Of a stretch of 64,000 bases of DNA, positions 10,601-55,004 are shown piece after piece. Source of the stretch: Azolla caroliniana (taxonomy: Eukaryota; Plantae; Polypodiophyta). The notes beneath the pieces were generated by a model. It had not been told where the DNA came from and ran no database searches. It saw nothing but the letters and a program-made list of their open reading frames with translations. The position numbers and the translations under genes were made by a program. How positions within the stretch are numbered: the first letter of the stretch is position 1; every line of letters starts with the position of its first letter. The stretch lies in contig JBHGNT010000021.1 of assembly GCA_043228905.1 (NCBI GenBank), positions 12,586,001-12,650,000 of the forward strand, given 5' to 3'.

Positions 10601-13233
10601 AAGGACGAATCAAAGCCGGTACACATCGCCAAAGAAATGAAGCCGGAAGATAAAGCGGCGATGATCAAACTTCTCACGGAGTTTCGCGACGTATTCGCCT
10701 GGTCATACGAAGACATGCGAGGGCTGGACCCTCAATTATATCAGCATCAGATCCACTTAGGCAAGGACGCGAAACCAGTGGCGCAAAGACGTTACCGAAT
10801 GAACCCCAACTACGCCGCCAAAGTGAAGGAGGAAATCGACAAACTCCTAAGAGTGGGCTTCATCCGGCCGGTAAAGAAAGCGACGTGGCTGAGCCCCATC
10901 GTCGTCGTCCCAAAGAAGAACGGTAAAATCCGCGTGTGTGTAGATGCCGTCGCCGGCCATGAAGTTTATAGCTTTTTAGACGGGTTCAGCGGATACAATC
11001 AAATCCGGATGCACCCTGACGACCAGGAGAAGACCGCGTTCGTAACCGAATGGGGAGTGTTTGTGGCCGTAGTAATGATGTTCGGACTAAAAACGGCACC
11101 AGCAACTTTCCAGCGAATCATCATGGAGATCTTCGGCGAATACATTCCAGCCTTCATGCAGGTTTTCCTGGATGACTTTGCAGTCTATAGCCGGGAAAAA
11201 GACCATTTGCAGCACCTACGGTTATGCCTTGAAAAGTGTAGGTTATACCGGCTAAGCTTAAACCTAGCAAAATGCATCTTTGGGGTTTCAAGTGGAATCT
11301 TACTGGGACACATTGTAAGTAAGGAGGGCATTGCGGTCGACCCGGACAAAGTAAACGCGATACTAGGGGCACCGGCGCCGAAAACGGCCAAAGCACTAAG
11401 CCGATTCTTAGGACAGATCCGGTGGCACAGCCGGATGCTCCGTCACTTGGCTGACTTGGCTACACCATTACACACCGCGGTACATCGGACACCGTTCCAA
11501 TGGACGGATACGGAGGATAAGGCATACAATGCCCTGAAGGTACTTTTGTCGCAAGCACCCGTCGTGCAGCCTCCGGATTGGAGCAAGGAATTTCATGTGT
11601 TCGTTGACGCTTCCGACATTGCTATCGACAGCGCCTTAATGCAACTTACGGAGCCCAAATGGTACCGGCTGGTATATTACGCCAGCCGGAAGCTGTCCCA
11701 AGCGGAGAAGAACTATTCGACTACGGAACGGGAGGCCCTGGGCATGATCTACAGTGTCACAAAGTTTCGTCATTACCTATTGGGAAGGAAGTTCTCCTTT
11801 CATGTGGATCACTCGGCGCTCCTGTACTTAGTGTCCAAGGCGTCCCTGACCGGTAAGTTGGCCCGTTGGACCTTGCTGTTGCAGGAGTTCGAATTCGAGA
11901 TCTTCCACCGGCCTGGAATCCAGCATGCCGTAGCAGACTACCTGAGCCGGTTAGAGTCCGGAGAATCAGGCGACGGAGTATCGGATGAATTCCCGGACGC
12001 AGAGTTATTCCGTATCACCCCGGAAACGGCAGCGGACGACACGGTGGCATCAGAAGATAGGTGGCTGACAAACATGCACCAGTTCCTAAGCACGGGCCTG
12101 CCACCGGAGGAAATGAACCGGGACGAGAGGAAACGACTGGCGGTGCAGAGCCGCAATTTCTGTCTGTTACGGGACACTCTCTACCACAAGGGAGCAGATG
12201 GAATATGGAGACGGGCAGTCCGTAGTGACGAGAAACAAGTAATCTTACGGGAAGCACACTGTGGGGTTGCCGGAGGACACTATGCCGGGGAAGCGATGGC
12301 AAGGAAAGTATGGCAGAGCGGCTTATGGTGGCCCACGACGTTAAAAGACGCCGTCAAGTATGCTAAGGAATGCGACCTATGCCAACGAATGGGCCAGCCT
12401 ACGGAGCAAGCACGGATGCCACACCAACCGGTACTTCCACTAGAGCCATTCCAGAAGTGGGGGTTGGATTTTGTCGGACCGTTCAAGCCATCGGCAATGA
12501 GAACAGGTAATCGTTATGTCATCGTGGCAACAGATTATTGCACTAAATGGGTGGAGGCTAAGGCCTTGAGAGACAACACCGCGTCATCCACAGCAAAATT
12601 CCTGTACGAGAACATTTGGTGCCGATATGGATGTCCGATTGAATTAATCAGCGACCAAGGAGGGCACTTCCTCGGCCAGGTAGTTGAAAGCTTAACAACG
12701 TTCTATGCCGTGGTCCATAAACGGAGCACACCGTACTACCCACAAGCAAACGGGTTAGCAGAGTCAACCAACAAAACGCTCTAGAACATTCTCCGCAAAA
12801 TCGTCAATGAAAACCGGACGGACTGGGATACAAAGCTCCATAGCGCGCTATGGGCGTACCGAACGGCATACAAAACAAGTATCCGGACAACGCCGTTCCG
12901 GTTAGCGTTCGGCTTAGAGGCGGTCGTGCCGGTGGAATTTCAGGTACCAAGCTTACGAATCCAACTACGAGAACGGCTGAATGAAAAGGAGTCGGAGGAA
13001 ATGCGGCTAGCAGCACTATGCGAACTGGAGGAGCAACGGCTGGCCAGCATCCTACACATGGAACTGGAGCAACGACGACGGAAAGCGTTCGTTGACCGTC
13101 ACCGGAAAGGTAATGAAAAGATGTTCGAAATCGGAAAGCCGGTGCTACTATTCCAAACGAGGATGGGCAAGATGCCGGGTAAACTCCGGTTTAGATGGAC
13201 AGGCCCGTATTGGCGGACACGGGAATACAACGG
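7670..13233 (+). pseudogene. gag-pol: Gypsy B Gag-Pol, one reading frame with three nonsense codons, an in-frame RT deletion and 3' truncation
   Basis: ORFs starting 7670, 8954, 9785 and 12926 share a frame; stops at 8942, 9701 and 12782. Three CCHC knuckles, protease VIDGGSG, RT FLDD, RNase H VFVDASD, integrase HHCC and DFVGP/SDQG/E; ends at WTGPYW. Confidence 0.92.
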
Positions 13234-14388
13234 TTGGCATGAATCCTCGGTATTACCTTCTTTCGTAGTTTCACCCTTAGCATTCTTCTCGGCTATCTCT
13301 TCATCGTATTCGTCGGCTTCGACATTCGTTTTCTCTCCGCCACCTTCCGTCTCTTCGGTCTCACGTTGCCTTTCGATCGCAACCGCCGGAGTCTCTGGAA
13401 TCAGTGGTGGGGAAGTCTCGATATGGCAATCCGCCATTGATTCGTCCATAGCCACCTCCGATTCGATTTCGTCTTTTGTGGCTACCTCCTTAATCACATC
13501 CGCTTCACACTCTTTATCTGCATCAATTATGCAAACATCTATTATGCTTACCCCTTTTTGACCCGATGTCTCGGGCACTTGTATCCCGAAATTTCCTTCT
13601 ACACTTGAATTATCGGCCTTATCCTTCGCCATCGTTCTTTCACAAGACGAGTGGGTGTCTTGTTCCACTCTTTCTCCCGTGGTACCATCATGTTGTATTT
13701 CGGCCTTCATATTGGCTTCATCATTTTTCCTCAATCGACCATCCTTCATGGGCCATGTCGTTGTTGACGAGATTCTCAGCTTCCTTTCATCATGTCTTCG
13801 GCATACCCTTTCGACTTTAGCCCAATCCTCGGTAAGGCCGTTCGCACCGTCATCATCTTCGAGTTCGATCCCAATGTCCATCCTTTCTTTCCGATCGATC
13901 GATCTTACGAACATTAAGACTTTATCTTCTCCCACCAATCTTCGTTCCCGCTCCGAGAGTCGAGCAAAACAATGCTCGAACTCTAGGAACGCTTGCGTTG
14001 CACTTCGGTGGGTCTTCTCCGATGCCACCCATTCGTCGAATTCTCGTCGATCTCGTCCCTTCGATCTCTTGTAATCACATGACTCTCGTAAAGCTTCTTC
14101 GAATGATCCCCATGTCGAGTTTTGTTGCCGTATCTTGTGGATTCTCTCTTGTAGCTCATCCGTGGCTACCCGATTGAAGGATGTCACTTGCAATCCTTCC
14201 AGTATCCCACATCGTATCATCTCCGCCTTGTAGTCACGTAGATAGCGTGACACATCGTTTCCGTTGAATTGTCCGTTTCGTTGTACGAGCCGCTTTACTG
14301 CCCCCGTGATCTCCGACATCGCTCGTTGTTCTTGTAGCATCCGCTCGAACATCATCATCATCGTTATCGCCTCTTGTTGATTCTCCAT
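13234..14388 (-). CDS. gag: Gag-like protein of element C with acidic low-complexity tail (truncated)
   Basis: FNGNDVSRYLRDY...EDKVLMFVRSID...IGIELEDDDGANGLTEDW, homologous to the ORFs of D and E; lies directly after the PBS. Confidence 0.72.
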
Positions 14389-14404
14389 CTCCTTGCCACC
14401 CGTC

Positions 14405-14422
14405 TTCACGTCGGGTTCACCA
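14405..14422 (-). other. Primer-binding site (tRNA-Trp) of element C
   Basis: Plus strand TTCACGTCGGGTTCACCA equals the recalled 3' end of plant cytosolic tRNA-Trp(CCA) plus CCA. Confidence 0.8.
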
Positions 14423-14427
14423 ACTTG

Positions 14428-15155
14428 TGTCGTGCCTTTCGGCTCCGGATCGTTGCGTGAGTCGGGTGGGAACCGCTGGGGTTTTGGACTAGGAAGAGGA
14501 GAGTTTTAAGGCTAATAAGAATATAAATATGTTGTAAGAAAGAGTTATAGCAAACTCGTGAATCCCACGAGTGTATTGTATTAGATTAATCAATATGAAT
14601 ATAAGAATATAAACTTCGGTTGAAAGAGAATGATATAGAATTCTCGTGAATCCCACGAGTATAGTTTATTAATTGGTGTTTTTTAGAAACATATCCAGTT
14701 TCCAAATATTTTTCACACACAATTACATTGTGCTCCCCATCCTTATGTAGTGATGAGGAAGTCTTAGTAATCCATGCTTTTTCTCTAACTATAGACCCCA
14801 TGCTTTTCCTATAGATAGACTATATGCTTTATCTAAAGTGATCATGCTTTTTTCTAACTTGTGCGTTTTTTATCATGCACGCTAGATGTGTATGTGTAGC
14901 TTTTTCTTTTGTTATGCGTTTTCCTAATGTTTATCCTAGCGTGAATTTACCTTTCTATGTGGGACATCTATGCTTTAACACTAATGAAATGCTAGTGTAA
15001 TGGTAAGACATTACATTATTAACATGGAGGTGCAAGGTTCGAATCTTGCCCTATGCATGTTCCATTTATTTTGCTATTTTCTTCTATTTCTTCATTTTTT
15101 ATTGAATCTAATACTATATACGTTTTTCACGTAGTGTACAAAATACACTACGACA
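14428..15155 (-). repeat. 5' LTR of element C
   Basis: Starts TGTCGTG 5 nt from the PBS and ends CTACGACA before ACGG. No second copy in the window. Confidence 0.7.
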
Positions 15156-15221
15156 ACGGACGTGAAAGCAAGGAGCGAAAAGGTACGTAGTGGGCATTTA
15201 AGAGCCGCCACGTTACTTAAT

Positions 15222-15248
15222 GGGTTGAAGCACGCTACGGGGTACCAA
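15222..15248 (+). repeat. Left terminal inverted repeat
   Basis: Inverted match to 28099-28125. Confidence 0.85.
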
Positions 15249-15767
15249 AAAAGTACTGTTTTTGGCCACAAAAATTGTCAGTACTTTCAATACTGTTAGT
15301 ACTGAATAATTCAGAAAAAAAATTAGAGAAAAAGAAAATCGATTTTGGAGAGTGGGGTGACTGTAGTACAAGTGTCATTTACTGTAGAAGGAGTGGGGGG
15401 AACACGTGAGGAGATGTTCTTCCATTTTGGGGGCTATTTTCCCCTCACGTCGATTTTGGCGCTTCCCCTCACGTCGTTTTGGCGATTCCCCTCATACTGT
15501 TCTTCCTCTATCTCTCTGAGCTTTTCATCACAGACATCCATGTCACGTTTCTGATTTTCCTTCAATCTAAATCTCAGACATCCATGTCTGGTTGGAGAGT
15601 TTGAGTTGAGGATTTCTGATTTTTTTAGGGTTTCTGTTTTTGTTAGGTTTCGGTTGAGGTACAGAGACTGTTCTGAGGGTTTAGGTAGCAGCCAATAGTC
15701 ACTTCTTTGACAACGACTTTCGTACTTCCACCGATTGCAGTTGATGTCGTGGTGATTTGGGGCTTTT

Positions 15768-16352
15768 TCCACCAAATCGAGGCGGCATTGGAGGTTCCTT
15801 CCACCAAATCGAGGCGGCATATCCAACGCTCCCTCCACCATTGGAGGTTCCTTCCACCAAATCGAGGCTGCATATCCACGCTCCCTCCACCATTGGAGGT
15901 TCCTTCCACCAAATCGAGGCGGCATATCCAACGCTCCCTCCACCATTGGAGGTTCCTTCCATCCTTTTTTTTATTTTCAGTACTAAAATGTTTCATTTCT
16001 TCATATTTTAGTACTAAATTTTTAGAATTGACATTTGCCATATTTGATATGTAATTCTAATGTTTGAAACAAAATATTTCTCACTTTGCAGGCCACATTT
16101 AAAAACATTTGATTGTGTTTTCTTGGTTGAGTCTATATATCCACGCTCCCTCCACCATTGGAGGTTCCTTCCATCCATTTTTTTCATTTTCAGTACTAAA
16201 ATGTTTCATTTCTTCATATTTCAGTACTAAATTTTTAGAATTGACATTTGCCATATTTGATATGTAATTCTAATGTTTGAAACCGGATTTATTTCTCACT
16301 TTGCAGGCCACATTTAAAAACATTTGATTGTGTTTTCTTGGTTGAGTCTATA
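15768..16352 (+). repeat. Subterminal ~53-bp tandem repeats and a ~215-bp tandem duplication upstream of the transposase
   Basis: CCACCAAATCGAGGCGGCATATCCAACGCTCCCTCCACCATTGGAGGTTCCTT about 3.5 times; ~15930-16140 repeated at ~16141-16352, each copy with a TTTGCAG|G acceptor-like site. Confidence 0.8.
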
Positions 16353-16408
16353 TAACATTAACTACTTTCGCAAGACACTTAATTTTTGTGGATAAATCTA
16401 GTGACCGA

Positions 16409-19400
16409 ATGGGGGTTCCTAACGAGAGTGAGTTGTCAAGTAACTCATGCATATCTGAAAGGACTAAGAGACGAGTGGTTCTTCACATAGTTCGTTATTT
16501 GGTAGAAATAACGAAGAGATTTAGTGAAGAGGATCGTAGGGATATTATTTGTAGAGTGTTACACCATCAAAGTTTGAATGAAGACATGGAGAGAATAAAA
16601 TTTAGGGACCAATGTGTTTCAGAAGAGATTGTGGAGTCTATGAAGTCATCCCTAGACTTAGTGAAAGGTGTAGAGAGCTTAGACAAACTTGCTGCAAAGA
16701 GGGCAGCCCTACACATGGTTGTGAATGGTGTGAGAGAAAAAAAATATAGTGATACTAAAGTTGCCTTAGCCCTGGGTATTCAAAGAAGGAACTTGAGGAA
16801 ACATCGCCGAAATATACACTCAAGCAAATTCAAGTGGCTGGGGTCGGGACGTAGACGACGATGTGATGCCTTATCTCAAGAGATTATTGAGAAAGTGGAT
16901 TCATTTTGGGCCAAAAATACGCGTGTCTCACCAAATAAGAAGGACGTGTGTAGACAACGAATAAGTCAGGGTATGTACCAGATTCACCCTAGACACTTCT
17001 TGGAGATGACAGAGGTATTCCATTTTTTTATATCAATTCACATTCCATAACTTTGTGTTTTGACCAAGTGTATATTAATGTTTGCTATATATATTGGTTG
17101 ATGTAGGCTGAATTGTACATGAACTTTAAAGACCAACATCCAAGCTTGACTGTCGGATTCCGCAAGTTCCAAGGTTTGAAACCATTTTATGTTAGAAAAT
17201 TAAATGAGAGGAATACATGTTGTTGTGTGTACCATGTGAAGATGGACATGTTAAGGGTTTCTGTGAATGCAATGCGTACTGATTCTAAGGGTATACATGG
17301 GGAATTATGTGTCTGCACTTGTGAGATTTGTAGACCAAATGGGGAGGATAATAGGTGTAATGCACGAAACATGACTTATGCATCCGTTTCTGAGCTATGG
17401 AGGTCTTGTGTTTGTGAAAAAGAACCATCGTGTGAGTGGCATCGTCGTACATGTCTATTAAGAACATGTAAGGTTTGTCCGCTACCATTATTTTGTAGGC
17501 AGGAGCTTGATATGGGAAATAGTCATATCGTGAAATGGAAATATTTGGAGTATGTGACTGAAAATATTGGCAAGGGAGTTGTAACTAAGCGTATCAAGGA
17601 AGTATATAAGGAGACATGTGCTGCTACCCTTGTCTCAGAATTTAAGAAACAACTTGGGGAGTTTATTCCACATAACTTCCGGAGTTATTGGCAAAATTCA
17701 CAGTTCAAGGAATGTATTAATAACTTACCAACGGGTGTCATTGTATCCGTTATTGATTTTGCAGAAAACTATACATTTAAAGTTCAAAATGAGGTTCAAT
17801 CAATGCATTGGTACAATGATCAATGTACAATACTTGTACATATTTGCTATTGGAGGCAAGACGGTGAGTTACATAAGAAATCAATATTTTACATTTCAGA
17901 TGATAAAAAGCATGATACACTATTTGTTCAACATTGTTTTAAGCTTCACCATGCAGATTTATTTTCTCTAGGGTTAACCTTTAACCGTCATTGGGTTTGG
18001 TCTGATGGTGCTGCCTCGCAGTTTAAGGCGGCACGATCGTTCTACTTTATCGCCAGGTAATTTTTAATCCATATGTTTAATACTTATCATGCAATGTGTA
18101 AGGAAGTAAATCTTGTGTTAGTGGATGCATACTAATTATGTTTGTAACTATTAACAAACAGTACTAGTCACATCGATGCATACTAATTATGTTTCTAACT
18201 ATTCGAATCTTGCACTTGTGAATGGATGCATGCATACTAATTTTGTTTGTATTATGTTGTACTAAGTAACTTTTAATCCATGTGAAGTGTTCTCCATAGA
18301 CACATTGTACTATGTTGTGTGTTGGTTCTGTACTATGTTGTGTTTACAAAAGGATGTAAAGTACTCATCTTGTACTCATAGTATTGTCCGTCCTTAAGAG
18401 AATTGTACTAAGTATCGATTAATCCATGTGAAGGGTTCTCCATAGACACATTGTACTATGTTGTGTGTTGGTTTTGTACTATGTTGTGTTTACAAAAGGA
18501 TGTAAAGTACTCATCTTGTACTTATAGTATTGTCCGTCCTTAAGAGAATTGTACTAATTATGTTTTAATCCATGTGAAGGGTTCTCCATAGACACATTGT
18601 ACTATGTTGTGTGTTGTATCTGTACTATGTTGTGTTTACAGGAGGATGTAAAGTACTCATCTTGTACTCATAGTATTGTCCGTCCTTAAGAGAATTGTAC
18701 TAATTATGTTTTAATCCATGTGAAGGGTTCTCCATAGACACATTGTACTATGTTGTGTGTTGGTTTTGTACTATGTTGTGTTTACAAAAGGATGTAAAGT
18801 ACTCATCTTGTACTTATAGTATTGTCCGTCCTTAAGAGAATTGTACTAATTATGTTTTAATCCATGTGAAGGGTTCTCCATAGACACATTGTACTATGTT
18901 GTGTGTTGGTTTTGTACTATGTTGTGTTTACAAAAGGATGTAAAGTACTCATCTTGTACTTATAGTATTGTCCGTCCTTAAGAGAATTGTACTAATTATG
19001 TTTTAATCCATGTGAAGGGTTCTCCATAGACACATTGTACTTTGTTGTGTGTCCTATCTGTACTATGTTGTGTTTACAGGAGGATGTAAAGTACTCATCT
19101 TGTACTCATAGTATTGTCCGTCCTTAAGAGAATTGTACTAAGTATCGATTAATCCATGTGAAGGGTTCTCCATAGACACATTGTACTTTGTTGTGTGTCC
19201 TATCTGTACTATGTTGTGTTTACAGGAGGATGTAAAGTACTCATCTTGTACTCATAGTATTGTCCGTCCTTAAGAGAATTGTACTAAGTATCGATTAATC
19301 CATGTGAAGGGTTCTCCATAGACACATTGTACTATGTTGTGTGTTGGTTTTGTACTATGTTGTGTTTACAAAAGGGTGTAAAGTACTCATCTTGTACTTA

Positions 19401-20525
19401 TAGTATTGTCCGTCCTTAAGAGAATTGTACTAATTATGTTTTAATCCATGTGAAGGGTTCTCCATAGACACATTGTACTATGTTGTGTGTTGTATCTGTA
19501 CTATGTTGTGTTTACAGGAGGATATAAAGTACTCATCTTGTACTCATAGTATTGTCCGTCCTTAAGAGAATTGTACTAAATCAGTATTTACTCATGTTGT
19601 ACTCATAGTATTGTACTCATCTTGTACTCACCAAAGCAGGTATTTCTCCTTATTCAATATTCGTATGCAATGGAATTACTTCGGGTCTGGACATGGAAAA
19701 GGAGAGCATGATGGCGCGGGGGCTGTGATCAAACGTGCCCTTACAAGTGAGCAGTTGGATAATAATGGCGCTAAGTTACAAAATGCACATGATGTTGTGC
19801 AGTGGCTAACATGGAAGATGTCAAATGATGGTAAGAACAGATTGTTTGTTGAAGTTCGCGCTGATGAGGTCGATAGAACTAAATCATATGGTTGTAAAAC
19901 CGTGAAAGGGACACGCAGCACCCATTGTGTGTTAGGGTTTAGCCGCAAGGACACAACCCAATTGTTACTCCGTAGTTTATCATGCTTTTGTTCCATGTGT
20001 CTAGATGAAGCTTGGGATAAATGCATCAACCTATCAATCGTGGAGCCCTGGAAGCTGCAGAAGCTTGAGCCTGAACTACAAGATGATATTGAAGAGGATG
20101 TGCATTCAAACGATATTGTATACTACAACCAAAATCAAGACTTGGCAGTTTTATTGGAAGTTGGAGATCATTTTGCAGTGCTCAAATATTCTCAGAATGA
20201 AGATTTAGAAGACTACTACATTGTGGTGTGCAAGCAAGGAAAGACATTATTGAAAGAAGTGGTGAGGGATGGTTGGGGCAACAATTTCAACGTTGGTGAG
20301 TCTGTCGTGTATGGAAACTATTATGCAAAGTTGCCGCAGTGCAAGAACACATATGCATTACTAAAAGAAGCACCCATCGCAATAATCTACGCTGATGCCA
20401 TTCTTGCGATCAAATTCAATATGACTCAAGCAAAGCACAAGGTTAAGGGATACAACACTGTCTACAAGGTCCCCCAAGAGGTTCATGAGCACATATTAGG
20501 GGAGGTCTCTCTATTTAATGCTTGA
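16409..20525 (+). CDS. Sola2-like DDD transposase, 3 exons (16409-17014, 17107-18056, 19640-20525), 813 aa
   Basis: GT-AG introns join in frame with no stops. Cys-rich region (CCCVYH, CVCTCEIC), then IDFAENY...QSMHW...ISDDKKHD...WSDGAASQFK...WNYFGSGHGKGEHDGAGAVIKR...CFCSMC. Confidence 0.85.
18265..19580 (+). repeat. 146-bp tandem repeat, about 9 copies, inside transposase intron 2
   Basis: AATCCATGTGAAG recurs every 146 bp at 18275, 18421, 18567 ... 19443. Confidence 0.93.
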
Positions 20526-21639
20526 AAGTCACCCTATCAATACATTGTACTAGAAAACTGAAAAACATCCACTTGGAGTTCACTATTAATTTTGATGATT
20601 GACAAATGAATTGATATATTTCGTCTTTCTTCCAAAGGGTTTATGCCTCTCAACCACTTGTACTTATCTTTCATAATATATTAGTTGTTATCAACAGGAC
20701 TTGGATTTCTTCATTGCCGATATTGCTCATGTTTCCTGATGTTATTTGAGCATAGGAGTTTTGCAGAGTTGGTGTGTCCTCTGTTGGCACATAAATCTGC
20801 TCTTCTTTTGCTACGAAGAGAAGATTGTTAGTTGAATTCATTAAAGACTTTAATATTGTAAGATTTTCTACTGTAAGTTCATTTTTCAAAGGGGGCGATG
20901 AATTCTGTGAAGACAACAATGAAAATTATTCTCTCAGAATCCTTTTTTGTTTCATGATATGTCCTGTGAAGCCATCTGAGTTTTTACTTCTTGTATATAA
21001 GTCCTGAATATCCAGGCTATGGATTTTAAAGTACAAACCTTCCTTTCCTTAACAAAATAATCCAACTTCTGAAACAATAATTTGTGATAGCTCAAAAAGG
21101 TAAGTGTTTCCTTACTACTGTTAGTGGATGATTCATCCTTTGGGATGATATCATCAAAATATGGCCCACATTGCTTCAACAATTTGCACACATTCTGGTT
21201 ACCGTCCAAATGGGATTGATGAAACAGTCTATACTTCAGGATATCTTCAATAACACCCAATACCCGATATTTTCTATTTCTCATCATCAACACCTAAAAA
21301 CCTAAATTTTCCTAGCAAGCTAAGAAGACTTTCAAGCATTTTATCTACAATAGACTGAAAGACTTTGCGAGGATTAGGAGATGATCTCAAAAAAGAAACA
21401 AAACGTTGTAAAATAAGAATACTTAGATCAAAAAGTATATTCCCATTGTTTTTGATATATGTTGATGAGCAAAATATAGAAGCAATCCTTAAACATGAAC
21501 GTGATTTCACACTGGTATAACTATTTCAGATTCATGAACTGGATTTTTTACATTGGCAATTGAAACAGTATTTTGGTATCCAAATAGTTCAATTTCAGAC
21601 ATCACTAACAACTAAAGTTCAAGTACAATCGAAAGACAA

Positions 21640-24600
21640 TCAGGCACTAGAGGGTAACTTGGCCGATCTTGTAATGCGCTTGTTGTTGGTGCCAGATTTT
21701 TCTGATTTTACATTCTTCTTTATCTTAAAGACTTTAGGTATGAGCTGACTAAGTGGCACTTCATCATCAGAGGCATCAGAGACAGGCGTGGATGCGCGGG
21801 CACCTTGTACTGGTGGCAAGCTTGAGAGAGCAACTATGTTTTCTGCAACTGCAATGCTTGTACACAAATCCACAAAGGTGCTGTCGATAGACAAATTATC
21901 ACTCATCTCCTGAATGCTTGTACTCCTAGCGATCTTTATTGCCCTATCATCATCACCGATGCCTATACACTCGTTCTTATTAGACTCCTGTATGTGGACC
22001 GTGGCAGTAGTCATGGTCAACTCCTCTTGTACGATGGATGTCACCTCATTCTTAAGACAACGTTGTTCGCTCTGAGTACAATCAGGCCCACCTTCATTAG
22101 TAACGTTGTTCACTCTACACTCCTCATGGGATTCTGTACAATCAGGCTTATCTTCAGGGAAAGCGATGTTCTTTCCACGATCCTCATGGGCTTCACAAGA
22201 CACTACTAGCACATTCTCAGTACAATCAAGCTCCTCTTCATTACTAGCAATGTTCTTTCCATGATCCTCATGGGAATCTTTAGATAGTACTAGCACATTA
22301 TCAGTACAATCAGTCTTCTCTTCAGCACTTGCCACATTATCAGTACAATCAGTCTTCTCTTCAGTACTTGCCATATTCTTTCCACACTCTTCATGGGCTT
22401 CAATCTTCTCTTCAGTACTTGCCATATTCTTTCCACACTCATAGGCTTCTTTAGACATAGTGTTGTTTGTACATGCCAGCTGCTCTTCACATATGAATGC
22501 TTCGTTTTTCTCACAATCCTCATGTGTGGAAGATGTGCTTCTAGAGTCTGCCTCCTTGCAAAGGTTAATTTGATTCTGACTCTGATGGGAATCTGATTCT
22601 GCACTTGTGCTCCATGAAGTTCCCGATTCATTTGATTGCAGTTGGGAATCAGACTGCTCTTGTAAACCTAATTAATGGGATTCCAAAGAATATTGGTATG
22701 AACTCACATACTCAAAAGTTTGCAAACAATGAACATAGGGTTTAGGGCCACATTTTTACCTAATGTTACATCGTCATACTGTACAGCCGTAGATACCCCA
22801 TTGCAAGTGGTGGGCTCGGTCATCTTCTCCACAACATCTAGGTGCTCAACAGTGTTGTTATGATCTATAATAACAACAAGAATAGGGTTGTTATGAGCTA
22901 AATCATTGTTTTCAAAGTCTGGCTTTTGACGTGTACCTGGGAGTGTGATAAATTCGTCTTCATGATCAGGTTTTGGACTCGTGTCTCCGTCACCAAATAT
23001 CATTTCATCATCAGCTAGTAACACAAGTACATGGTATTAGACAATGGATTAGGTTGACAATGCTCCAGACAGGTGAGAACTTATATGACTCACCATTGCA
23101 TTCAACTTTGCCTTTCTTGCCGTTTCCATACAACATTCTTGCAGCATTTCTCTTCTTACTGGGCTCTATTTGTAAAGAAACTGCATTTCTCTTCTTAGTG
23201 GGCTCTATTTCTTGATGTTGACCGGAGCTTGGGGAATTTGTTTGTAGAAGCATATGTTCCACTGCTCCAATGGCCCTTCTCATACATTCATCCTCATCAT
23301 AAAAATCATAGGTTATTGGTAATGATGGTCCCTGAACCTTGGAATGTGCAGCAGATATTGAGGGTTTAGGCACAGGGGCTGGTTGTTCCATTACCTTCCC
23401 TGGCGTGGAGTTGCTTGACACTACAACATTCATTGCAAGAAACAAAAAAACCTTGAATGTTAGTACCATCATCTAAAATATATAATGTAGGTCACAAGAG
23501 CTGCTTCCCATTTTACACAATGTACCAGTCATGAACAATGTACTACTCACATAGTTCCTAAATTATTGAACTAGTACTAATAAGGAACATTGTACTGCTC
23601 ACTTAGTTCCCAATTTACACGATTAGTACTAATCATGCACAACATACACAAGTAGTACTAATCATGCACAATATACTACTCACTTAGTTACCAAATTACA
23701 CAAGTACTAATCCCGAAAAATGTACCACTGACTAAGTCAAATTAATAAGTAGTACTAATCTTGAACAATGTACTACTCACTTATTTCCTAAATCACTGAA
23801 CTAGTACTAATCCCGAACAACGTAATGCTCACTTAGTTCCCAATTTACACAAGTAGTACTAATCATGCACAATATACTACTCACTTAGTTAGCAAATTAC
23901 ACAAGGAGTACTAATGCCGAACAACGTAATGCTCACTTAGTTCCCAATTTACACAAGTAGTACTAATCATGCACAATATACTACTCACTTAGTTAGCAAA
24001 TTACACAAGGAGTACTAATCCCGAACAATGTACTGCTCACTTAGTTCCCAATTTACACAAGTAGTACTAATCATGCACAATATACTACTCACTTAGTTAC
24101 CTAATTACACAAGGAGTACTAATCCCGAACAACGTAATGCTCACTTAGTTCCCAATTTACACAAGTAGTACTAATCATGCACAATATACTACTCACTTAG
24201 TTAGCAAATTACACAAGGAGTACTAATCCCGAACAATGTACTGCTCACTTAGTTCCCAATTTACACAAGTAATACTAATCATGCACAATATACTACTCAC
24301 TTAGTTACCAAATTACACAAGGAGTACTAATCCCGAACAATGTACTGCTCACTTAGTTCCCAATTTACACAAGTAGTACTAATCATGCACAATATACTAC
24401 TCACTTAGTTATCAAATTACACAAGGAGTACTAATCCCGAACATTGTACCACTGACTTAGTCAAATTACACAATTAGTACTAATCCTGAACAATGTACTA
24501 CTCAACAATGTACCACTGACTTAGTCAAATCACACAATTAGTACTAATCCTACAAAATGTACTACTCACTTATTTTCTAGATTACTGATCTAGTACTAAT

Positions 24601-38755: not shown

Positions 38756-40718
38756 TCCGCCCCCACCTAACCGCACATCCACCGGTATGTGCCAAGTCCG
38801 GTTGAAGGGTGAGAGATTTCGGCCGGTGAGAAACCAGTCTTCTGTGATCCGCATCCCGACTCGCTGCCGGTTTGATCCGTCGGCTTTGATTCTTCCTTCG
38901 CGCTTACCTCCCTGTAGGCTCGTTCGACCCGTCGATGGGTCCTCTACCGCGATCTCTGTAGTACGCATACTTCCGCTGGCCCTCGTTCGGCCGTATGAAC
39001 GCCCTGCTCCCGTCGTATGCCCTTGTCCTCTTGCCGCCACCTTCCTTCTCCATGGTCTTACATCGCCGCGTCGGCTCGAACCGCCATGGTCTCCGGAACG
39101 GTGTGAAGGATCTCTTTCGGTCTTCTCCACGCTCGTATTCCCGCACCGGCACCTCCGTGTGCCACATACCCTTGTCCGTTGTTTGGCACTGCCTGTATCG
39201 TACTCCGGTTCATTGCACGCCTTGTCGGCCCCCTTTCCGACCAGATCGTGCATCGCCGCTCCCCGCATACTGGTGTCCTTTGAATCCGAGGAACACCCCG
39301 TAGTAGCCCGCTTGGCCCTTCCCATCTTCGTGCTGTTGCAATAGGTCCTGAGTCTTCCGCTTGCCGTCGTCCCCTCGCCCCCACCAACTTGTCACCCCGG
39401 GCTTGCCGTGTCAGTCTTTGCTACTTCGACAGAGCTACCGAGATCTACGAAGCGAGTGTGGAGGATCCTCCTTCGGCCTCTCTTGCCATCCCCTGACTCC
39501 GACCCTGTGCAGTCCACTAGGCACTTGTCACCTCGTTTCCGGCACCTCCCTTGTGCCGTCTTCCGTGCGGAACACCGTCCCGTAGTCACGCTTCGATCCA
39601 GCCCGCAATGGCCACTTGCGAGACTCTTGTTCTGTCCCAGGTGTGCCTTTCCAGCCTGACACACCTCCCCGTGTTTGCCCCTACCGGCTGCTTCCGAAAC
39701 ATCGTGTCGTCGGGTCCCATTCCCTGCCGCCACCTTCCTTCTCCCTCGGTCTTACGTTGCCACGTTGGCCGATCAGCCGGGGTCTCTGGATCAGTGTGAG
39801 GGTCCCATAGGACCAGGCTTCGTTTCTATGCTTGCCGAAATTCGGGTGCCTTTTGTTTGAGTCTCTCCTGGACTCTCCTCGTGTCTTCCGCGTAGTCGGG
39901 TCCAGTTTCCCGCCGCCACCTTCCTTCTCCCTCGGTCTTACGTTGCCACATTGGCCGAACAGCCGGAGTCTCTGGTTAAGTGTGAGGATCCCATAGGACT
40001 AGACTTCCTTATGCCCACTGACCTTGCCGGAAGGTCCGATTTGGTTCGTGGCCGCCTCGCCGGCCTGATACATCCTTGCCATTTGTCGCCTCCTGTCGTC
40101 CGATCACGTTCTCCTGCCGCCACCGACCTTTCCTATAGGACTCACATCGGCACTTGGGCCGACCGCCAGATCAGTGTGAGGATCTTCGTGGGACCGCCCA
40201 TCCGTAGCCCTTGCCTTCGTCACCTCGCCGCCACCGTCAATATCTTGGTCTTACGTCGTCCGCATTGCCGACTGCCGAAGTCTCTAGAACCGGTGTGAAG
40301 GATCCTCCTTAGACCGCCGATTTGTCTTCCCGACCCTGTCCCGGGTCGTCCTTTTCCGCATGCCGAGAGGGCGGTTTACTCCGCACCCTCTCCCGTGGTA
40401 CCGGTGTACCGTCTCCTCGGCCTCTCCATAGGCCTGCTCTCTACCTCCCTCCTAGAATGGTCATCCGGGAGTCCGCTCCGCCCGGTTCTCGTCCGGGTCC
40501 GTTCGTCCTTCTCTGGATTGCCGAGTCCCGTTCTCCTGTCGCCACCGATCTCTCTTATAGGACTCACGCCGGCACTCGGGCCGGCAGCCGGATCGGTGTA
40601 AGGAACTCCATAGGACCGGCTTTCATTCTCCTTCCAACTCTCAACCTTCGCCCGGTCGGTCTTTCTCCCCATGTAAAAGAGGGCGGCTCGTCCCGCACCC
40701 CCTTCCGTATCGGCACTT

Positions 40719-42158: not shown

Positions 42159-42195
42159 CCTCCCTTGCCGCCTTTCACGTCGGGCTCACCAAATA

Positions 42196-42965
42196 TGTTG
42201 CGTTGTTACGCGAGTGCATGGAGAAAGGCGGGACCACGGGGGTTTTGGACTAGGGAGTGATGGAGTGTAGGAAGTCGTGCTTCATCGTTTCCGGGGCATC
42301 CCAGAAGCACACCGGAAGCAACCGAAGAGAGAGAGAGAGAGAGAGAGCGCTTAACACCGACTCACGCACACACACTCACACACACACACACAGGCCAACC
42401 CGACTCACACCCTTAAGTACAGGAAATGCAGGAAAGGGGAAGCACCCGACACCAACGAAGACGCGAATATACATAGAAAAACGCAAACGTATATATATAT
42501 ATATATAAGAAGAATACATTCCCGGCGTCGAGCCGGACCGAGGTAGGTTACAGTAGTTGTCAGCTGCCAAGCCGCCGGTCGGGGAGCTCACGGGCTCGTC
42601 GCGCCGAGCGGGGTCTTGCGCAGGAGATGAGCTGATGCAAACCCTAAGCGAACACGAAGGGGGGAAGAAGAAGAAGAAGAAGAAACTAACTCTAAACCTA
42701 ACGGTATACCCTCTAATGCAAAATGGGCAACCCCTTCACAAAGGGCGTTCCCTTCCTTTTATAGAACAAGGACAGGGATGCGTTACAATGTGGGATAAAC
42801 CCCCAACTTACATGGGACCGTCTATCCCGACTTGACTACTCTTCGGCGCCATAAAGGCGCCCTCGTTATTGACACTAAATGTACATGGGTGCGTACACAC
42901 GCTACACCCCGCCGATGTAGCCAATGTTTCCCGGTTTCCGCCTCTGGCCGAAATTCTTCACGACA
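42196..42965 (-). repeat. 5' LTR of element D
   Basis: Repeat of 37984-38755, adjacent to the PBS. Confidence 0.93.
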
Positions 42966-43300
42966 ACGGATCCGGCAACTTGAGCGAAGGCTGGAGGACG
43001 TGGAATGGGCGAAGGAGAACCTGCACGCGGCAAGGGAATGAAACAAAACCGGTTCGACCGGACGCACCGACTACGATCGAGGAAGATTGAGGAAGGCGAT
43101 TGGGTGCTGGTTTACGACATCAGCCTCGACAACCAGCATAAGGCGACCCGCAAATTCGCAAGGAGATGGTTCGGGCACTACACGGTGACAAGCACGAACG
43201 ACAACGGCATGTACCATCTTGCGGAGCTCGACGGGGCACGATTGGCGGTGCCAGTAGCCGGGATGCGGATTAAAGCGTTCAAGAAGCAGTACAAAGACGA
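42966..43300 (+). pseudogene. pol: Gypsy A integrase C-terminus (GPY/F-like region)
   Basis: RIRQLERR...GDWVLVY...KFARRWFGHY...YHLAELDG...RIKAF; no chromodomain evident. Confidence 0.8.
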
Positions 43301-43443
43301 GCGGAGCGGGGGAGTGATAACGACAACGATCGGTTTAGGGATGCCGATAATTCGGAGAGCGACGAGTGAACGCGAGCCGGTTTTCTCTGGTATTTTCCCC
43401 TCTTCGGCGCATACCGGTGGATGCGCGGTTTGGTGGGGGTGGA

Positions 43444-44093
43444 TGTTGTGAAGAAAACAGGCTAGAAGCGGAATCGGCGAAGCAGGGGGCATGAACCAGC
43501 CCTACACTTTTCCACACCAATTAATACCTTGTACATAACTAGGAGTAGGACGATGGGTGTAAATACACTAGATGTGATGCATTGAGTGTCTAGGAAATCA
43601 AAGAGTATCTTTGTTTGAAAGGACAGAGAATAAATTGATGAAAATGAGGGTGCAACGGCTTGCCTCGACGGCCTATAAAAGGGAAGGAAGAAGGGGATGA
43701 AGATATCGGTTTTCAGGAGCGAGGACTAAGTGCTGTCGGACTGGGACTGAGCTCTCACCTCCATCGTTCGTCATTCTCTGCAGGATATTGGACTGAGTTG
43801 CCTCTGCTTCGTGGACAGCCCTTGTGCTTCTGGCAGAGGCTCCACAGTGCAGTTGGGACTGTGTGTGCGCGTGAGCATCGTGTGTGTGTGTGTTCGCCTG
43901 AGTTGGGTACGTTGCCGGCTTGCCGGTTGTAATCGTTATTGATTTTGTAATTAAGACTTTGTTCTCTCTCTCTTTCTCCCTCTGTGTTTCTGCAAGCTGG
44001 TCTCTCTCTCTCTCTCTTCCTTCTCACGCTCCTTGGTTCAAGACCCCTACAGTCCCGCCTCTTTCCACACGCGAAGAGCATAACAATTCGACA
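43444..44093 (+). repeat. 3' LTR of Gypsy A
   Basis: Follows the PPT; TGTTGTGAAG...TTCGACA; contains TATAAAA; termini resemble the D/F LTRs. Confidence 0.78.
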
Positions 44094-49535: not shown

Positions 49536-51290
49536 TGGTGTTTATTCCTTGTAGGCCCGAGCTATCAAACATGAATTTTGGGAAGTGAAGATAGATGAAG
49601 TAAATAGGGAGAAGACTTGGGAGTGCCAAGGAATTCCCGAATTATGATCTCTCCATGATGTTCAAGGTTATTCTAGGTTGGATGGTCATTGTATTGCGGT
49701 TAGAGAATTAATTTGTTTTTGCTTCCATTGTGTGCAGGGAAATTGGAGGTATTGTTTAAACAAAGCATATATTCAGAATTGGGAGTATCATACGTTGAAT
49801 GATAAGGAAGTAGTTGATGGAGAAACAGAACAGAATGTTGACTTCACATATCAAGGACGTGGAGATACTCTGAGTGATGTCTTAAATGTTGGGGATAATT
49901 TCGCTGTAAATTTAGAGGGTGTTGATTTCTATATATTGAAGTGCACGGTGTCGCGAAAATACGACGAGGATACGTGAACTTGAGGTAGGACCCCGGGGCC
50001 TCCGACCGGAAGATATCAGATTCGTATGATTATATTAAACAATTAATACAAAATGAGAAAGATTCACAAATTTCATTAATAAAGGGAAAGAAAGATTACA
50101 ATCAATCTCAAGATTGAGATTACAAAAATTTTAGTTAATGGAGATTACTAGAGTAATAGATAAGAGGAAATTAAGATATGAATTCTATAGAAAATTAGGG
50201 TTTTTGGCTTTGATAAGAGATTATGGTTTTATGAGTTGAATAGCTTCCATATGGAAATTTAGGGTTATGAGTAAGATATGGCTTCCGTAAGGAAATTATG
50301 GTTTACTTGAGAGATAGCCTCCTTTCCGTATGGAAAATCTAGGGTTATGAGTAAGATATGACTTCCGTAAGGAAATTATGGTTTACTTGGCTTCCGTAAG
50401 GAAATTTAGGGTTTATGGGCCTTATGGCTTCCGTAGGGAAATTAGGGTTTATGAGAGATATGGCTTCCCTAAGATAAGGGAGTTGAGAAGGAAAAGAAAA
50501 TTAATGGAGGGAGAATATGTGTAAAAGAAATGGAATTTTATATGGAGTTCCCCCTTGATCATAGCCTTCCATGTTACTTTACTTTATGCATGCCCTCCAA
50601 CTTTAGTTGCATACGTCCACATGGCCTCTACTTTTAGTTGCATAGCTTTTTCTTTTAGTTGCATGACTTTCCACCTTTTCTTTGCATGCCTTCCAACTTT
50701 TTGCATACGTTCACATGGCCTTTACTTTAGTTCCCTTTACTTTACTTTAATAACCACATGATCTTGTTATCCGTTCGGTTTGCGTCCAGCCTCGTCCGGT
50801 CGACGGTTCCGGTTTGCTTACCGACCGGTTTCCAGTTTTGCTTACCGGTCGGTTTCGGTTTTGCTTACCGGCCGGTTTCGGGTTTTGAAACCGGCCAGTA
50901 AGCAACAACCATAAGGTGGAAGTGGCAAAGAGTAGCACGACAAAGGCAATGCCAAACTACAAAATTCCTCCACACTCGTTTGAGAGACTTGGGCATTAAT
51001 CGATGTAAGACCCAAGCGAAGGACGATGGCAGCGAGGAATCAAGGGTTAAAGCCAATGTGTGCAACAAGGAAGTAAAGCAAAGCAAAATGATGAAAGTCC
51101 ATGCATGCGACAAAGAGGTCAAGCAAAGCACGAAGACAAAAGTTAATGTGTGCGACAAAGAGACCAAGCAAACCTCGAAAAGCAAAGATATGGGCCAAGT
51201 GGGCCAAGCGGATATGACTTGTCCTCAGCCACCTTTGACTCGATGTCATTTTTCATGGCTATCTCTTTGGACTCATAGGCCTCGTACCCA

Positions 51291-52867
51291 TTGATCCTCT
51301 TCATCGAGCAAGCCTCGATTATTCTTCCCTCTTCTTTGCATGTGTTAATTTTGGCCTTCACTTCCTCACCACCACCTTCCGTCTCTTGGGTCTCACGTTG
51401 GTTCTTTGACGCAACTTCCCAAGTCTCTGGAGCATGTGTGGAGAAAATCCGGCCATGGTCATTGTCAACGCTTGTTATCTTGTTTATAGTCACCCCCTCG
51501 ATGTCGTCTTTAGCGGCGAGATCCTCAATTACACTAGCCTCGCTCTCTTTATCTCCATTCCTGCAAGCTTCAATTTGGCTTGTTCCATCATCCGTTGTTT
51601 CGAACACGATGCATGTTCCGAAACATTCCGCCTCCTTTGAAATGGCCGTCATCATTCTCAAGTCATCATCAATATTCTTTTCATGTTGGATGCGTTGTTT
51701 AGGCGTCTCGACTTCTTCAGATGGTCTTGAATTTTCTACACTTGGTCTTACCAAGTCAACATCATCGAGCCATCGATGACGCCTGTCGATCTTGTTGCAT
51801 GCTTGCTTCACCGCAACCCAATCCGCCACAAGCCCGTTCGCTTGGCTATCATCTTCGAGGAGAATCCCCAACTCTCGTCTATCCTTCATGTCCACAACTT
51901 TCAAGAAGTACAAAGTCTTGTCTTCCTCAAGTAGCACTTGGTCCATGGCAGGGAGATGACAAAACATTTGGTCGAACTCGTCGTACACCCTCGAGACGCT
52001 CATCGTCTTATTTTTCTTCTCTATCCATTTCATGAGGACATGTCGAGTCATCCTCGTTGAGTCTTCAGTCGCGAACTCCGCTAATATCGCTTTCTCGAAC
52101 TCCGACCACGTTGTCTTCCCTTCTTGAAGCTCGATGACCCGCCTTTGGACATTGTTGGCGGCAACTCTCTTGAAGCTTGCGATTTGATGTGCTTCGGACA
52201 CGTCCCTTTTGTATGCGTCAAGGAACTTCGTAACGTTCCTTCCATCAAATTGACCCTCGAGCTCTACGACACGGTGTCGTGAAGAATTTCGGCCAGAGGC
52301 GGAAACCGGGAACATTGGCTACATCGGTGGGGTGCAGCGTGTGAACGCACCCATGTACATTTAGTGTGAATATCGAGGGCGCCTTTATGGCGCCGAAGAG
52401 TAGTCAAGTCGGGGCAGACGATCCCATGTAAGGCGGGATTTGTCCCACATTGTAACGCATCCCTTTCCTTGTTCTATAAAAGGAAGGGAACGCCCTTTGT
52501 GAAAGGGTTGCCCATTTTGCATTAGAGGGTATACTGTTAGGTTTAGAGTTAGGTTCTTCTTCTTCTCCTTCTGCGTGTTTCGCTTAGGGTTTGCTTGGTT
52601 CGGCCTCCTGTGCAAGACCCCGCTCGGCGCGATGAGCTGAGAGCTCCCCGACGGCGGCTTGACAACAGACGACTACTGTAACCTACGTCAGTCCGGCTCG
52701 ACGCCGGGAATGTATTCTTCCCTTCATATATATATATATACGTTGTCTGTGTATATTCGCGTCGTTGTTGGCGTCGGGTGCTTACCCTTTCCTGCGTTTT
52801 CTGTACATAAGGCGTGAGTCGGGTTGTGCACGTGTGCGTGTGCGTGTGCGTGAGTCGGTGTTAAGCA

Positions 52868-52941
<74 letters not shown>

Positions 52942-53190
52942 TTCTCCCTTCGGTTGCTTTTGGTGTGTCTCTGGGATGCCCCAGAAACAGTGAAGTGCGA
53001 CTTCCTACGCTCCATCACTCTCTAGTTCATGACCCCCGTGGTCTCGCCTTTCTCCACGCACGCGCGTAACAACGCGACAACGGTCGACGGCCTTCTCCAT
53101 GCTCGCATCGTTTTCTCGAGATCTCATCATTTGTTCGACGATTATCATCATCCTTTCGAATTCTCCCGCTTGATTACTTGAGGATGCCAT
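51291..53190 (-). pseudogene. gag: Gag-like ORF of element E, split by solo LTR F
   Basis: MASSSNQAGEFERMM...AVD|RVVELEGQFDGRNVTKFLDAY...EDKTLYFLKVVD...LLEDDSQANGLVADW. Confidence 0.78.
52275..53079 (+). mobile_element. Solo LTR F of the element-D family
   Basis: Inverted homologue of the D LTRs; TSD ACGG at 52271-52274 and 53080-53083; contains a long (CT)n run at 52870-52937. Confidence 0.92.
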
Positions 53191-53257
53191 CTCCAAGTAT
53201 CGGTCGATCCTCGATTTGATCCTTCCTGCCGTCTCTTTCACGTCGGGTTCACCAAAA

Positions 53258-54657
53258 TGTCGGGAAAATACGATGAGGACACGTGAACTTGAGGCAGAAC
53301 CTCGGGGCCTCCGACCAGAGGATATCAAATAGATTAAGAAGTAGCCGAAATAAGAAAGATTGACAATTTTCATTAACAATTCGAAAGAAAGATTACAATC
53401 AATCCCAAGATTGAGATTACAAAAAGTTTAGCTAATGGAGATTACTAGAGTAATAGATAAGAGGAAACTAAATATGGATTCAATAGAAATTTAGGGTTTT
53501 TGGCTTTGATAAGAGATTTTAGATTTTGAGAGATATGGCTTCCGTAGGGAAATTTAGGATTTATGGCTTCCGTAAGGAAATTAGGGTTTTTGAGTGTTAT
53601 GGCTTCCGTAGGGAAATTTAGGGTTTTTGGCTTCGATAAGAGATTATGGTTCATCAGTTGAGTAGCTTCCGTATGGAAAAATTTGGAATTATGAGTGATA
53701 GATCTTCCGTAGGGAAAATTAGGGTTTTTGAGTCTTATGGCTTCCGTAGGGAAATTAGGAATTATGAGCCTTATGGCTTCCGTAGGGAAATTAGGGTTTA
53801 TGAGAGATATGGCCTCCCTAAGATAAGGGAGCTGAGAAGGGAAAGAAAATTAATGGAGAGAGGATGAGTGTAGGGAAAAAAATGGAATTTTATATGGAGT
53901 TACCCGTTGATCATATGCATGTCCACTTTTTGTTGACTGGCCTCTACTTTTAGTTGCATAGCTTTTTCTTTTAGTTGCATGACTTTCCACCTTTTCTTTG
54001 CATGCCTTCCAACTTTTTGCATACGTTCTCATGGCCTTTACTTTAGTTCCCTTTACTTTACTTTAATAACCACATGATCTTGTTATCCGTTCGGTTTGCG
54101 TCCAGCCTCATCCGATCGCCGGTTCCGTCTGGTCGCCGGTTGCCACCGCCTCACCGGCTCCGCCGCCGATTCCGGTTTTCTTACCGGCCGGTTTACGATT
54201 TTCTTACCGGCCAGTTTCAGTTTTGCTAACCGACCGATTTCGGGTTTTGCTTACCGGCCAGTTTTGGTTTTGCTTACCGTCCGATTTCCGGTTTTGCTTA
54301 CCGGCTAGTTTCCGGTCAACAAAACCGAAACCGGCCGATAAGAAAACCGAAACCGGCGGCGGAGCCTGTGAGGCGGCGGCAATCGACGATTGGACGATTT
54401 CCGGTTTTTGGGAACTCGGCCACCATTATCTATCAAGACAAAGTGGCCAAAGTGCTCTTAGCACAAATGAAAAATGAGGGATCTCAAGGTGCTTATATAG
54501 CCAGAGTCTTAAGTTTCCTATCTATGTGGGATAAATCATAGTTCTATTTTCCCTATCTTCTCAAACATCCATCTTTCTATAACATGCCATTAAACTAACA
54601 TAAAGTACTTATTTTATTATTTATTTGTTTACATAGTGTGAGAAGATTCACACGACA
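53258..54657 (-). repeat. 5' LTR of element E (1.4 kb) with ~32-bp TTAGGG-containing tandem repeats
   Basis: TATGGCTTCCGTAGGGAAATTAGGGTTT units at ~53480-53830 and ~50190-50480. Confidence 0.82.
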
Positions 54658-55004
54658 ACGGTTAGTAAACAATGTGCAACGCAAAATATATTAGATGCAT
54701 GGGGAAATGTTGTATCTACCGGGACATTCTTCATCGAAGGTATTTTTTATGCAAGACTAGATGATTACGATTATGTGTATAGGCTATTAGAAGACAAACC
54801 AGTGGCGTACATATACTCTCATTTGGTCAGGTGTATCAGTGTTGCTATACAATAGCTGCTCAGTTTTATACACAGTTAGTGCTAATGTGTATGAATGTAT
54901 TTACAACAGTATGCCATGGAATTTGTAGCTACAAGTAGCAATTACCAATTTTCTTGTAAAACAAACAAAGCACATGTATTGCAAATAAACAGTTTAATGG
55001 ACCT

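What the first reader, a model, noticed from the sequence alone, without database searches (positions are those of the whole stretch)
13230..54661. tRNA-Trp-primed LTR group with 4-bp TSDs and a fixed ACGG target
Seen: E is flanked ACGG/ACGG (49945, 54658) and solo LTR F ACGG/ACGG (52271, 53080). D has ACGG on the right (42966), and its host codons GCA CGG imply the same target although the left copy is damaged. C has ACGG on the right (15156). Context is C-ACGG-W in D, E and F. C, D and E carry an 18-nt Trp PBS, and all LTRs have TGTYG...CGACA ends. The Copia and Gypsy B insertions here have ordinary, unrelated 5-bp TSDs. Known: plant LTR elements typically make 5-bp TSDs with weak sequence preference, and Trp priming is uncommon. 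Inference: a sequence-specific, CpG-centred integrase.
Basis: partly seen in the sequence, partly recalled or inferred. Interest (0 to 1): 0.78.

Follow-up and report, generated by a model that had tools for sequence, protein, structure and literature searches.

The report
Phygy-type retrotransposons inserting at CG sites
These plant retrotransposons duplicate four bases centred on CG when they insert and carry a tryptophan-tRNA-like priming site, so they likely belong to the already described moss 'Phygy' group; the target is 'any-CG-any' rather than a fixed ACGG.

Summary
The junctions are real. E and solo LTR F have exact 4-bp ACGG duplications. C and D have ACGG only on the right: C's left ACGG is a deletion breakpoint and D's left copy is damaged. 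C, D and E carry an 18-nt Trp-type PBS.

The combination is published. Neumann et al. 2019 (PMC6317226) list Phygy as 4-bp TSD (100%), motif NCGN, tRNA-Trp (81%), no aRH. G's clade lacks aRH and a chromodomain, which excludes TatI.

'Fixed ACGG' fails outside the window. Contigs that leave the D/F LTR terminus in four public runs gave majority flanks CCGT, ACGC, ACGC and ACGT: CG fixed, outer bases variable. TGTYG/CGACA termini also occur on the two 5-bp-TSD Copia elements here.

Likely mechanism: a 4-bp-stagger integrase kinks the target at a central CpG step, as PFV does at YR steps. An acidic residue at the PFV Ala188-equivalent position (76 of 76) is a testable lead. Placement on a tree beside named Phygy sequences could not be run.

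The parts
49949..54657 (-). Element E: 5' LTR 53258-54657, Trp-type PBS, gag (interrupted by F), partial 3' LTR 49949-50899 lacking its U3 end and PPT; no pol. Inserted in a transposase-like ORF.
49945..49948 (+). Left TSD of E (ACGG)
54658..54661 (+). Right TSD of E (ACGG)
52275..53079 (+). Solo LTR F, D family (80% to the D LTR), inserted in E's gag in the opposite orientation; TSD ACGG at 52271-52274 and 53080-53083
37984..42965 (-). Element D: LTRs 42196-42965 and 37984-38755 (96% identical), Trp-type PBS ending at 42191, gag ORF 40719-42185, PPT, no pol (gag-only). Right flank ACGG 42966-42969; left copy damaged. Inserted in G's integrase.
13234..15155 (-). Element C fragment: 5' LTR about 14428-15155, Trp-type PBS ending at 14422, truncated gag. 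Right flank ACGG 15156-15159. The left end is a deletion joining it to B's integrase.
5556..7197 (+). Element G pol, part 1 (RT and start of RH; degenerate, 67% to P0126). Its gag, PBS and 5' LTR lie upstream of Copia A, outside the window.
36945..37983 (+). Element G pol, part 2 (RH, integrase N-terminal and core), resuming after Gypsy B
42966..43313 (+). Element G pol, part 3 (integrase C-terminus; no chromodomain), resuming after D
43406..44093 (+). Element G PPT region and 3' LTR (about 43445-44093, TGTTG...CGACA); right flank CCAG, one transition from CCGG
7198..36944 (+). Gypsy B (control): separate RT clade grouping with angiosperm elements, 5-bp TSD AGCCC; host of C
28151..33579 (-). 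Copia (control): 5-bp TSD ACGTG; its LTR also begins TGTCG in element orientation
27..5371 (-). Copia A (control): 5-bp TSD AACTG; its LTR also ends CGACA in element orientation; lies directly upstream of G's pol

Best explanation
C, D, E, F and G are Ty3/gypsy retrotransposons, likely of the Phygy lineage, that leave 4-bp duplications with CG in the middle and likely prime reverse transcription with tRNA-Trp. Shown: the junctions, the PBS, the shared gag type and the RT clade. Inferred: D (gag only) and its solo LTR F were mobilised in trans by the RT and integrase of an autonomous G-type element, which shares their PPT region and LTR ends. Inferred from retroviral intasomes: the integrase joins the two LTR ends 4 bp apart on opposite strands, which needs a sharp kink at the central base step. 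CpG is a flexible pyrimidine-purine step, and repair of the gaps duplicates N-CG-N. Because it is CG and not any YR step, some direct base reading is likely as well; an acidic residue at the PFV Ala188/HIV Ser119-equivalent position is a candidate. The outer bases are biased at most, not fixed.
For: Two-sided 4-bp TSDs in 2 of 2 complete cases, and CG-centred right flanks in 4 of the 5 right junctions. Majority flank has CG at positions 2-3 in 4 of 4 runs (20, 17, 28 and 6 contigs), with varying outer bases. [quoted passage not shown] C/D/E gag matches the N-terminus of 16 G-type polyproteins of Riccia (best E 8e-20, 3e-14 and 2e-22). L016 joins G-type integrase, PPT, an LTR ending CGACA, a PBS and this gag on one contig. 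G's RT lies in a 100/100 clade with Riccia, Adiantum and metagenome sequences, apart from B and the angiosperm elements. No aRH or chromodomain was found in the G-type proteins scanned. YR-centred bending for 4-bp integrases: PMC4422553, PMC4005685. Acidic residue at catalytic D+3 in 76 of 76 genuine motifs among 120 G-type hits, against 0 of 98 among 120 B-type hits.
Against: No named Phygy sequence could be placed on the tree (the REXdb FASTA and element table were too large to read), so lineage membership rests on matching features. Phygy was defined as P. patens-specific, and no hit was named Physcomitrium. G's own PBS and left TSD are outside the window, and its right flank is CCAG, not NCGN. 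Four of four ACGG-class sites is unlikely under unbiased NCGN (p about 0.003). One search gives majority letters, not counts; it omits flanks beginning with T and covers only the D/F family. In PFV, Ala188 contacts bases outside the TSD rather than the central step, which weakens the acidic-residue idea as the source of CG reading.
Confidence: 0.85

Rival explanations
1. The integrase recognises one fixed tetranucleotide, ACGG/CCGT.
For: All four right flanks of C, D, E and F are ACGG. X1's majority flank is CCGT. Two single contigs also show ACGG at the terminus (table 5c).
Against: Majority flank ACGC in X3 and X5 and ACGT in X6. Simulated probability of majority C at position 4 is 0.002 (n=17) or 0.0002 (n=28) if half the sites were ACGG/CCGT, and about 0 at 90%. 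G's flank is CCAG. The published motif is NCGN.
Confidence: 0.04
2. Same lineage and CG core, but with a real bias in the outer bases (for example A/C first), so that ACGG/CCGT is the commonest of several targets. This refines the best explanation and does not exclude it.
For: Four of four same-class sites: p about 0.003 under NCGN, about 0.04 under MCGK. The first flank base is A or C in 4 of 4 run majorities.
Against: T-first flanks were invisible by design. Majority C at position 4 in two runs does not fit MCGK. The window sample is four sites, chosen after the fact.
Confidence: 0.4
3. The elements belong to TatI, the only other REXdb lineage listed with 4-bp TSDs and tRNA-Trp priming.
For: TatI: 4 bp (100%), tRNA-Trp (75%), n=4.
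Against: TatI has aRH in 100%, between protease and RT. No aRH (RVT_3) match lies there in the G-type polyproteins scanned; the only RVT_3 hits (E about 0.05) overlap the ordinary RH. No CG preference is reported for TatI.
Confidence: 0.02
4. A separate, unnamed Ty3/gypsy lineage of bryophytes and ferns has converged on Trp priming, 4-bp TSDs and a CG target.
For: No tree with a named Phygy member was possible. G-type RT is very distant from the B and angiosperm elements.
Against: It needs three independent coincidences. The relative L016 has a different PBS that resembles tRNA-Thr (identity recalled, not tested), Phygy's listed second primer. Riccia members carry DUF4100, a family I recall as described from Physcomitrella (recalled; the paper search found nothing).
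Confidence: 0.09

Closest known systems
Phygy (Ty3/gypsy, non-chromovirus; REXdb, Neumann et al. 2019, PMC6317226)
   Same: 4-bp TSD, NCGN target, tRNA-Trp PBS, no aRH, no chromodomain, RT-RH-INT order.
   Different: Defined from Physcomitrella patens only, with mean size 8.6 kb. Tree placement untested.
TatI (REXdb; club-moss)
   Same: 4-bp TSD and tRNA-Trp PBS.
   Different: Has aRH between protease and RT, which was not found here; no CG target reported.
ZAM-subgroup errantiviruses of Drosophila (PMC5408687)
   Same: Gypsy-type elements with a CG-containing palindromic target (CGCG).
   Different: Insect lineage with a full CGCG motif; here only the central CG is fixed. An analogy of mechanism, not membership.
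Prototype foamy virus intasome (PMC4422553, PMC4005685)
   Same: 4-bp stagger with a kinked central YR step; best solved-structure match to the G-type integrase region (E about 5e-20).
   Different: PFV prefers any YR weakly and has Ala at position 188; the G clade has Glu/Asp there and a much stricter CG.
TR-GAG non-autonomous elements (seen only in a search listing; definition recalled)
   Same: Two LTRs, PBS, gag and PPT without pol, as in D and contig L013.
   Different: Here tied to a Trp-primed, CG-targeting Gypsy partner.

Membership tests
Phygy | RT/RH/INT cluster with P. patens Phygy elements (the primary definition) | not testable with these tools
   REXdb FASTA and element table too large; no named Phygy protein among hits. 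The tree shows only a distinct 100/100 clade with Riccia, Adiantum and metagenome members.
Phygy | 4-bp TSD | tested here: met
   E and F, 2 of 2 two-sided cases.
Phygy | NCGN target | tested here: met
   C, D, E and F right flanks; majority CG at positions 2-3 in 4 of 4 runs. G's flank is CCAG.
Phygy | tRNA-Trp PBS (minor: tRNA-Thr) | tested here: met
   C, D, E and L013; match to a published mammalian tRNA-Trp probe. Host tRNA genes not available (none in the window).
Phygy | No aRH and no chromodomain; RT-RH-INT order | tested here: met
   Pfam on full-length G-type proteins; G's integrase ends at 43313, about 120 bp before the PPT.
Phygy | Length 7.7-10 kb, polyprotein spanning the internal region | tested here: inconclusive
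   G is incomplete in the window; D is a 5.0-kb gag-only derivative; C and E are deleted.
TatI | aRH between protease and RT | tested here: not met
TatI | 4-bp TSD and tRNA-Trp PBS | tested here: met
Chromoviruses (Galadriel has 38% 4-bp TSDs) | Chromodomain after integrase; tRNA-Met or self-priming | tested here: not met
   No Chromo hit; the PBS is Trp-type.

The most novel reading that the evidence does not exclude
The Phygy-type integrase reads CpG directly, possibly methylated CpG, with an acidic residue at the Ala188/Ser119-equivalent position that is invariant in this clade. That would steer a chromodomain-less element into methylated, transposon-rich DNA by sequence alone. All five members here sit inside other transposons, and each insertion recreates its own target on both sides. 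It would be a plant retroelement integrase with a defined, possibly methylation-sensitive target, spread across liverworts and ferns.
Probability: 0.15. Interest if true: 0.6.

Novelty: new member of a known kind. Interest (0 to 1): 0.2.

Why it matters
The headline properties are already published for Phygy, so the finding mainly extends that lineage to another plant genome and to gag-only derivatives. What remains open is how the only plant LTR lineage reported with a target motif selects CG. I saw no mechanistic study in the listing of the 18 papers that name Phygy (I read passages of three of them). The invariant acidic residue, and a high-copy family with many contig junctions in public runs, make this testable.

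Tried and rejected
No whole genome is held, so the genome-wide TSD table could not be made. The PBS pattern in viral contigs gave 10 hits, none with retroelement similarity; the pol query there found nothing. The LTR-terminus pattern in metagenomes gave 4 loci: 2 bacterial chance matches and 2 D-family contigs that show only PPT-side junctions. The first read-laying run was crowded by internal variants, and its one terminal consensus (X5, 20 contigs, CCGT) runs into PPT-like letters, so I did not count it. Cluster look-ups named no plant species. The Atlas search of the integrase returned generic fungal and animal Gypsy integrase clusters. DUF4100 was absent from the window ORFs, L013 and four gag homologues. 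CpG-context substitutions between D and L013 were barely enriched (19 of 220 against 33 of 498), so they say nothing about CpG methylation. Four look-ups of earlier findings were empty. Rejected: C's left ACGG as a TSD; a CACTA terminus reading of C's right end, because the sequence is continuous with a PBS-bearing LTR and gag; TGTYG/CGACA as a family marker. No structure was predicted.
Full report
Observation. The window (48% GC, no N, no whole genome held) is a nest of transposons. Self-alignment and Pfam resolve three intact Copia ORFs, a degenerate Copia, Gypsy B (7198-36944) and the group in question. E (49949-54657, minus) and solo LTR F (52275-53079, plus) are each flanked by ACGG on both sides. 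Three- and five-base matches fail, and the host reading frame is open across the empty site in both cases. D (37984-42965, minus; LTRs 96% identical) has ACGG on the right, while its left copy is damaged. C (13234-15155, minus) has ACGG on the right. The ACGG at 13230 is not a TSD: seven B-family homologues were printed, and six continue the integrase for 45 or more residues beyond that point (the seventh was not located by my anchor), a continuation absent from the window. In element orientation the sites read CCGT (C, D, E) and ACGG (F).

PBS and termini. An 18-nt PBS follows the 5' LTR of C, D and E. It agrees at 13 of 15 positions, past the CCA complement, with a published mammalian tRNA-Trp probe (PMC5737633, passage; the same primer sequence is in PMC7555719, passage). 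The controls have 5-bp TSDs. Both Copia elements also have TGTCG/CGACA at one end, D's 5' LTR has a mutated end, and E's left LTR lacks its U3 end. The terminal motif is therefore neither universal nor diagnostic.

No pol lies inside C, D or E. A degenerate pol, element G, runs on the plus strand in three pieces (5556-7197, 36945-37983, 42966-43313), split by B and by D, and is followed by a PPT and a 3' LTR (about 43445-44093) with right flank CCAG. Its PPT region resembles D's. G's RT found 232 relatives among 513 candidates, 120 listed: metagenome proteins at up to 83% identity, Riccia sorocarpa and Adiantum nelumboides. The gag of C, D and E matches the N-terminus of 16 of those Riccia polyproteins. 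Contig L016 joins a G-type integrase, PPT, an LTR ending CGACA, a PBS and the same gag. On an RT tree of 39 rows (23 G-type chosen from 168, 14 B-type from 30, plus the two window RTs), G falls in a 100/100 clade apart from B and the angiosperm elements. D keeps both LTRs, PBS, gag and PPT without pol. L013, from an independent 3.9-kb metagenome contig, has the same layout at 89-93% identity, so D represents a gag-only family. E and C are too deleted to say.

Is the target fixed? Within the window, four central CGs have p about 1e-5 without preference. Four sites of one class have p about 0.003 under NCGN and about 0.04 under MCGK (post hoc). To go beyond four sites I laid contigs of four public runs from four studies (organisms A and B) on D's PPT-side LTR terminus, so that insertion junctions appear as loose ends (1464, 820, 1175 and 184 contigs laid; 111 loose-end rows not shown). 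At the exact terminus, 38755, the majority flanks were CCGT (20 contigs), ACGC (17), ACGC (28) and ACGT (6), with overall agreement of only 0.39-0.54. CG holds positions 2-3 in all four runs; the outer bases vary. A majority C at position 4 has simulated probability 0.002 (n=17) and 0.0002 (n=28) if half the sites were ACGG/CCGT, against 0.05 and 0.03 under NCGN at window frequencies. Limits: these are majority letters, not counts; how the tool weights them is unknown; T-first flanks are hidden; the runs share insertions; one-sided flanks do not give TSD length.

Comparison with what is known. Neumann et al. 2019 (PMC6317226; sections 7 and 9, passages, and supplementary file 5 read) state that Phygy elements are the one exception among plant LTR lineages, with an insertion preference for NCGN. 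[quoted passage not shown] PMC6911290 (passages) reports 4-bp TSDs as commonest in Phygy, with GC-rich centres in 4-bp TSDs overall. PMC12885004 (passages) reports Phygy in a liverwort, enriched at centromeres. The only other lineage with Trp and 4 bp, TatI, always has aRH between protease and RT. The G-type proteins scanned show none there, and no chromodomain. PMC7466625 (passages) gave no lineage labels for the P. patens families. The defining test, a tree with named Phygy sequences, could not be run because the two relevant supplements were too large to read. Those files also hold the per-element TSDs that would show whether Phygy itself is biased towards ACGG/CCGT.

Mechanism. Shown: the 4-bp duplication, the CG core, the PBS and the shared gag and RT clade. 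From the literature (PMC4422553 and PMC4005685, passages): integrases with a 4-bp stagger kink the target at the central step and favour flexible YR dinucleotides; in PFV, Ala188 and Arg329 contact bases. Inferred: the same geometry applies here, with added base reading that narrows YR to CG. PFV integrase is the best solved-structure match to the integrase region after Ty3 Gag-Pol, and HMMER aligns a Glu to Ala188. Among 120 G-type hits my pattern matched 82; six were off-target and dropped, and all 76 others have Glu (63) or Asp (13) there. Among 120 B-type hits it matched 99; one was dropped, and none of 98 is acidic. Retroviruses have small neutral residues there. Against the idea: Ala188 contacts lie outside the duplication, and these sequences are kin, so the count is one evolutionary event. 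Drosophila ZAM-group elements target CGCG (PMC5408687, passages), a parallel case. Whether methylation of the CG matters is untested. Copies differ mostly by C>T and G>A changes (58 of 105 changed places in X1), which fits deamination but says nothing about the target at insertion.

Verdict. The feature is real, correctly spotted as CG-centred and 4-bp, but already described as the signature of Phygy; the 'fixed ACGG' is an over-reading of four sites. New member of a known kind, interest 0.2. The open point worth pursuing is how this integrase selects CG.

Noticed in passing
window 15222-28125: A 12.9-kb DNA transposon inserted in Gypsy B: imperfect terminal inverted repeats beginning GGG, 4-bp TSD TAAT, internal 146-bp and 52-bp tandem arrays, and a transposase-like ORF (17107-18060) whose Atlas neighbours are unnamed or DUF7869 clusters. 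A 4-bp AT-rich TSD suggests Sola (recalled, untested).
   Followed up: partly
window 28151-33579 and 58665-64000: Two copies of one Copia element, 99.87% identical over 5335 bp, in opposite orientation 25 kb apart, both with an intact 1361-aa ORF: a very recent local transposition or an assembly duplication.
   Followed up: no
table 5c, run X5, at window 42969: One contig runs through the LTR terminus and ACGG and then directly into another TGTCG-type LTR end: two elements separated by exactly the 4-bp site, as expected if a TSD is reused as a target.
   Followed up: no
L016:2056-2090: A G-type relative has a different PBS that resembles tRNA-Thr (identity recalled). L015 and L016 are plant retroelement contigs inside a cyanobacterial genome assembly, i.e. 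contamination.
   Followed up: partly
window 33704-36473 and 44094-45800: Gypsy B carries long extra ORFs without Pfam match between pol and its 3' LTR. A pol-less B-like derivative on the minus strand is the host of G's 3' end.
   Followed up: no
window 55037-55740: B-like LTR fragments arranged as an inverted pair next to E.
   Followed up: no
window 46100-46590 and 49500-54960: A second transposase-like gene, similar to 17863-18029, is interrupted by a degenerate Copia (about 46600-49200) and by E.
   Followed up: no
P0034, P0038, P0045, P0053, P0064, P0108: Riccia G-type polyproteins carry DUF4100 (PF13352) between gag and protease, which suggests this 'unknown' family is part of the retroelement polyprotein.
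   Followed up: partly
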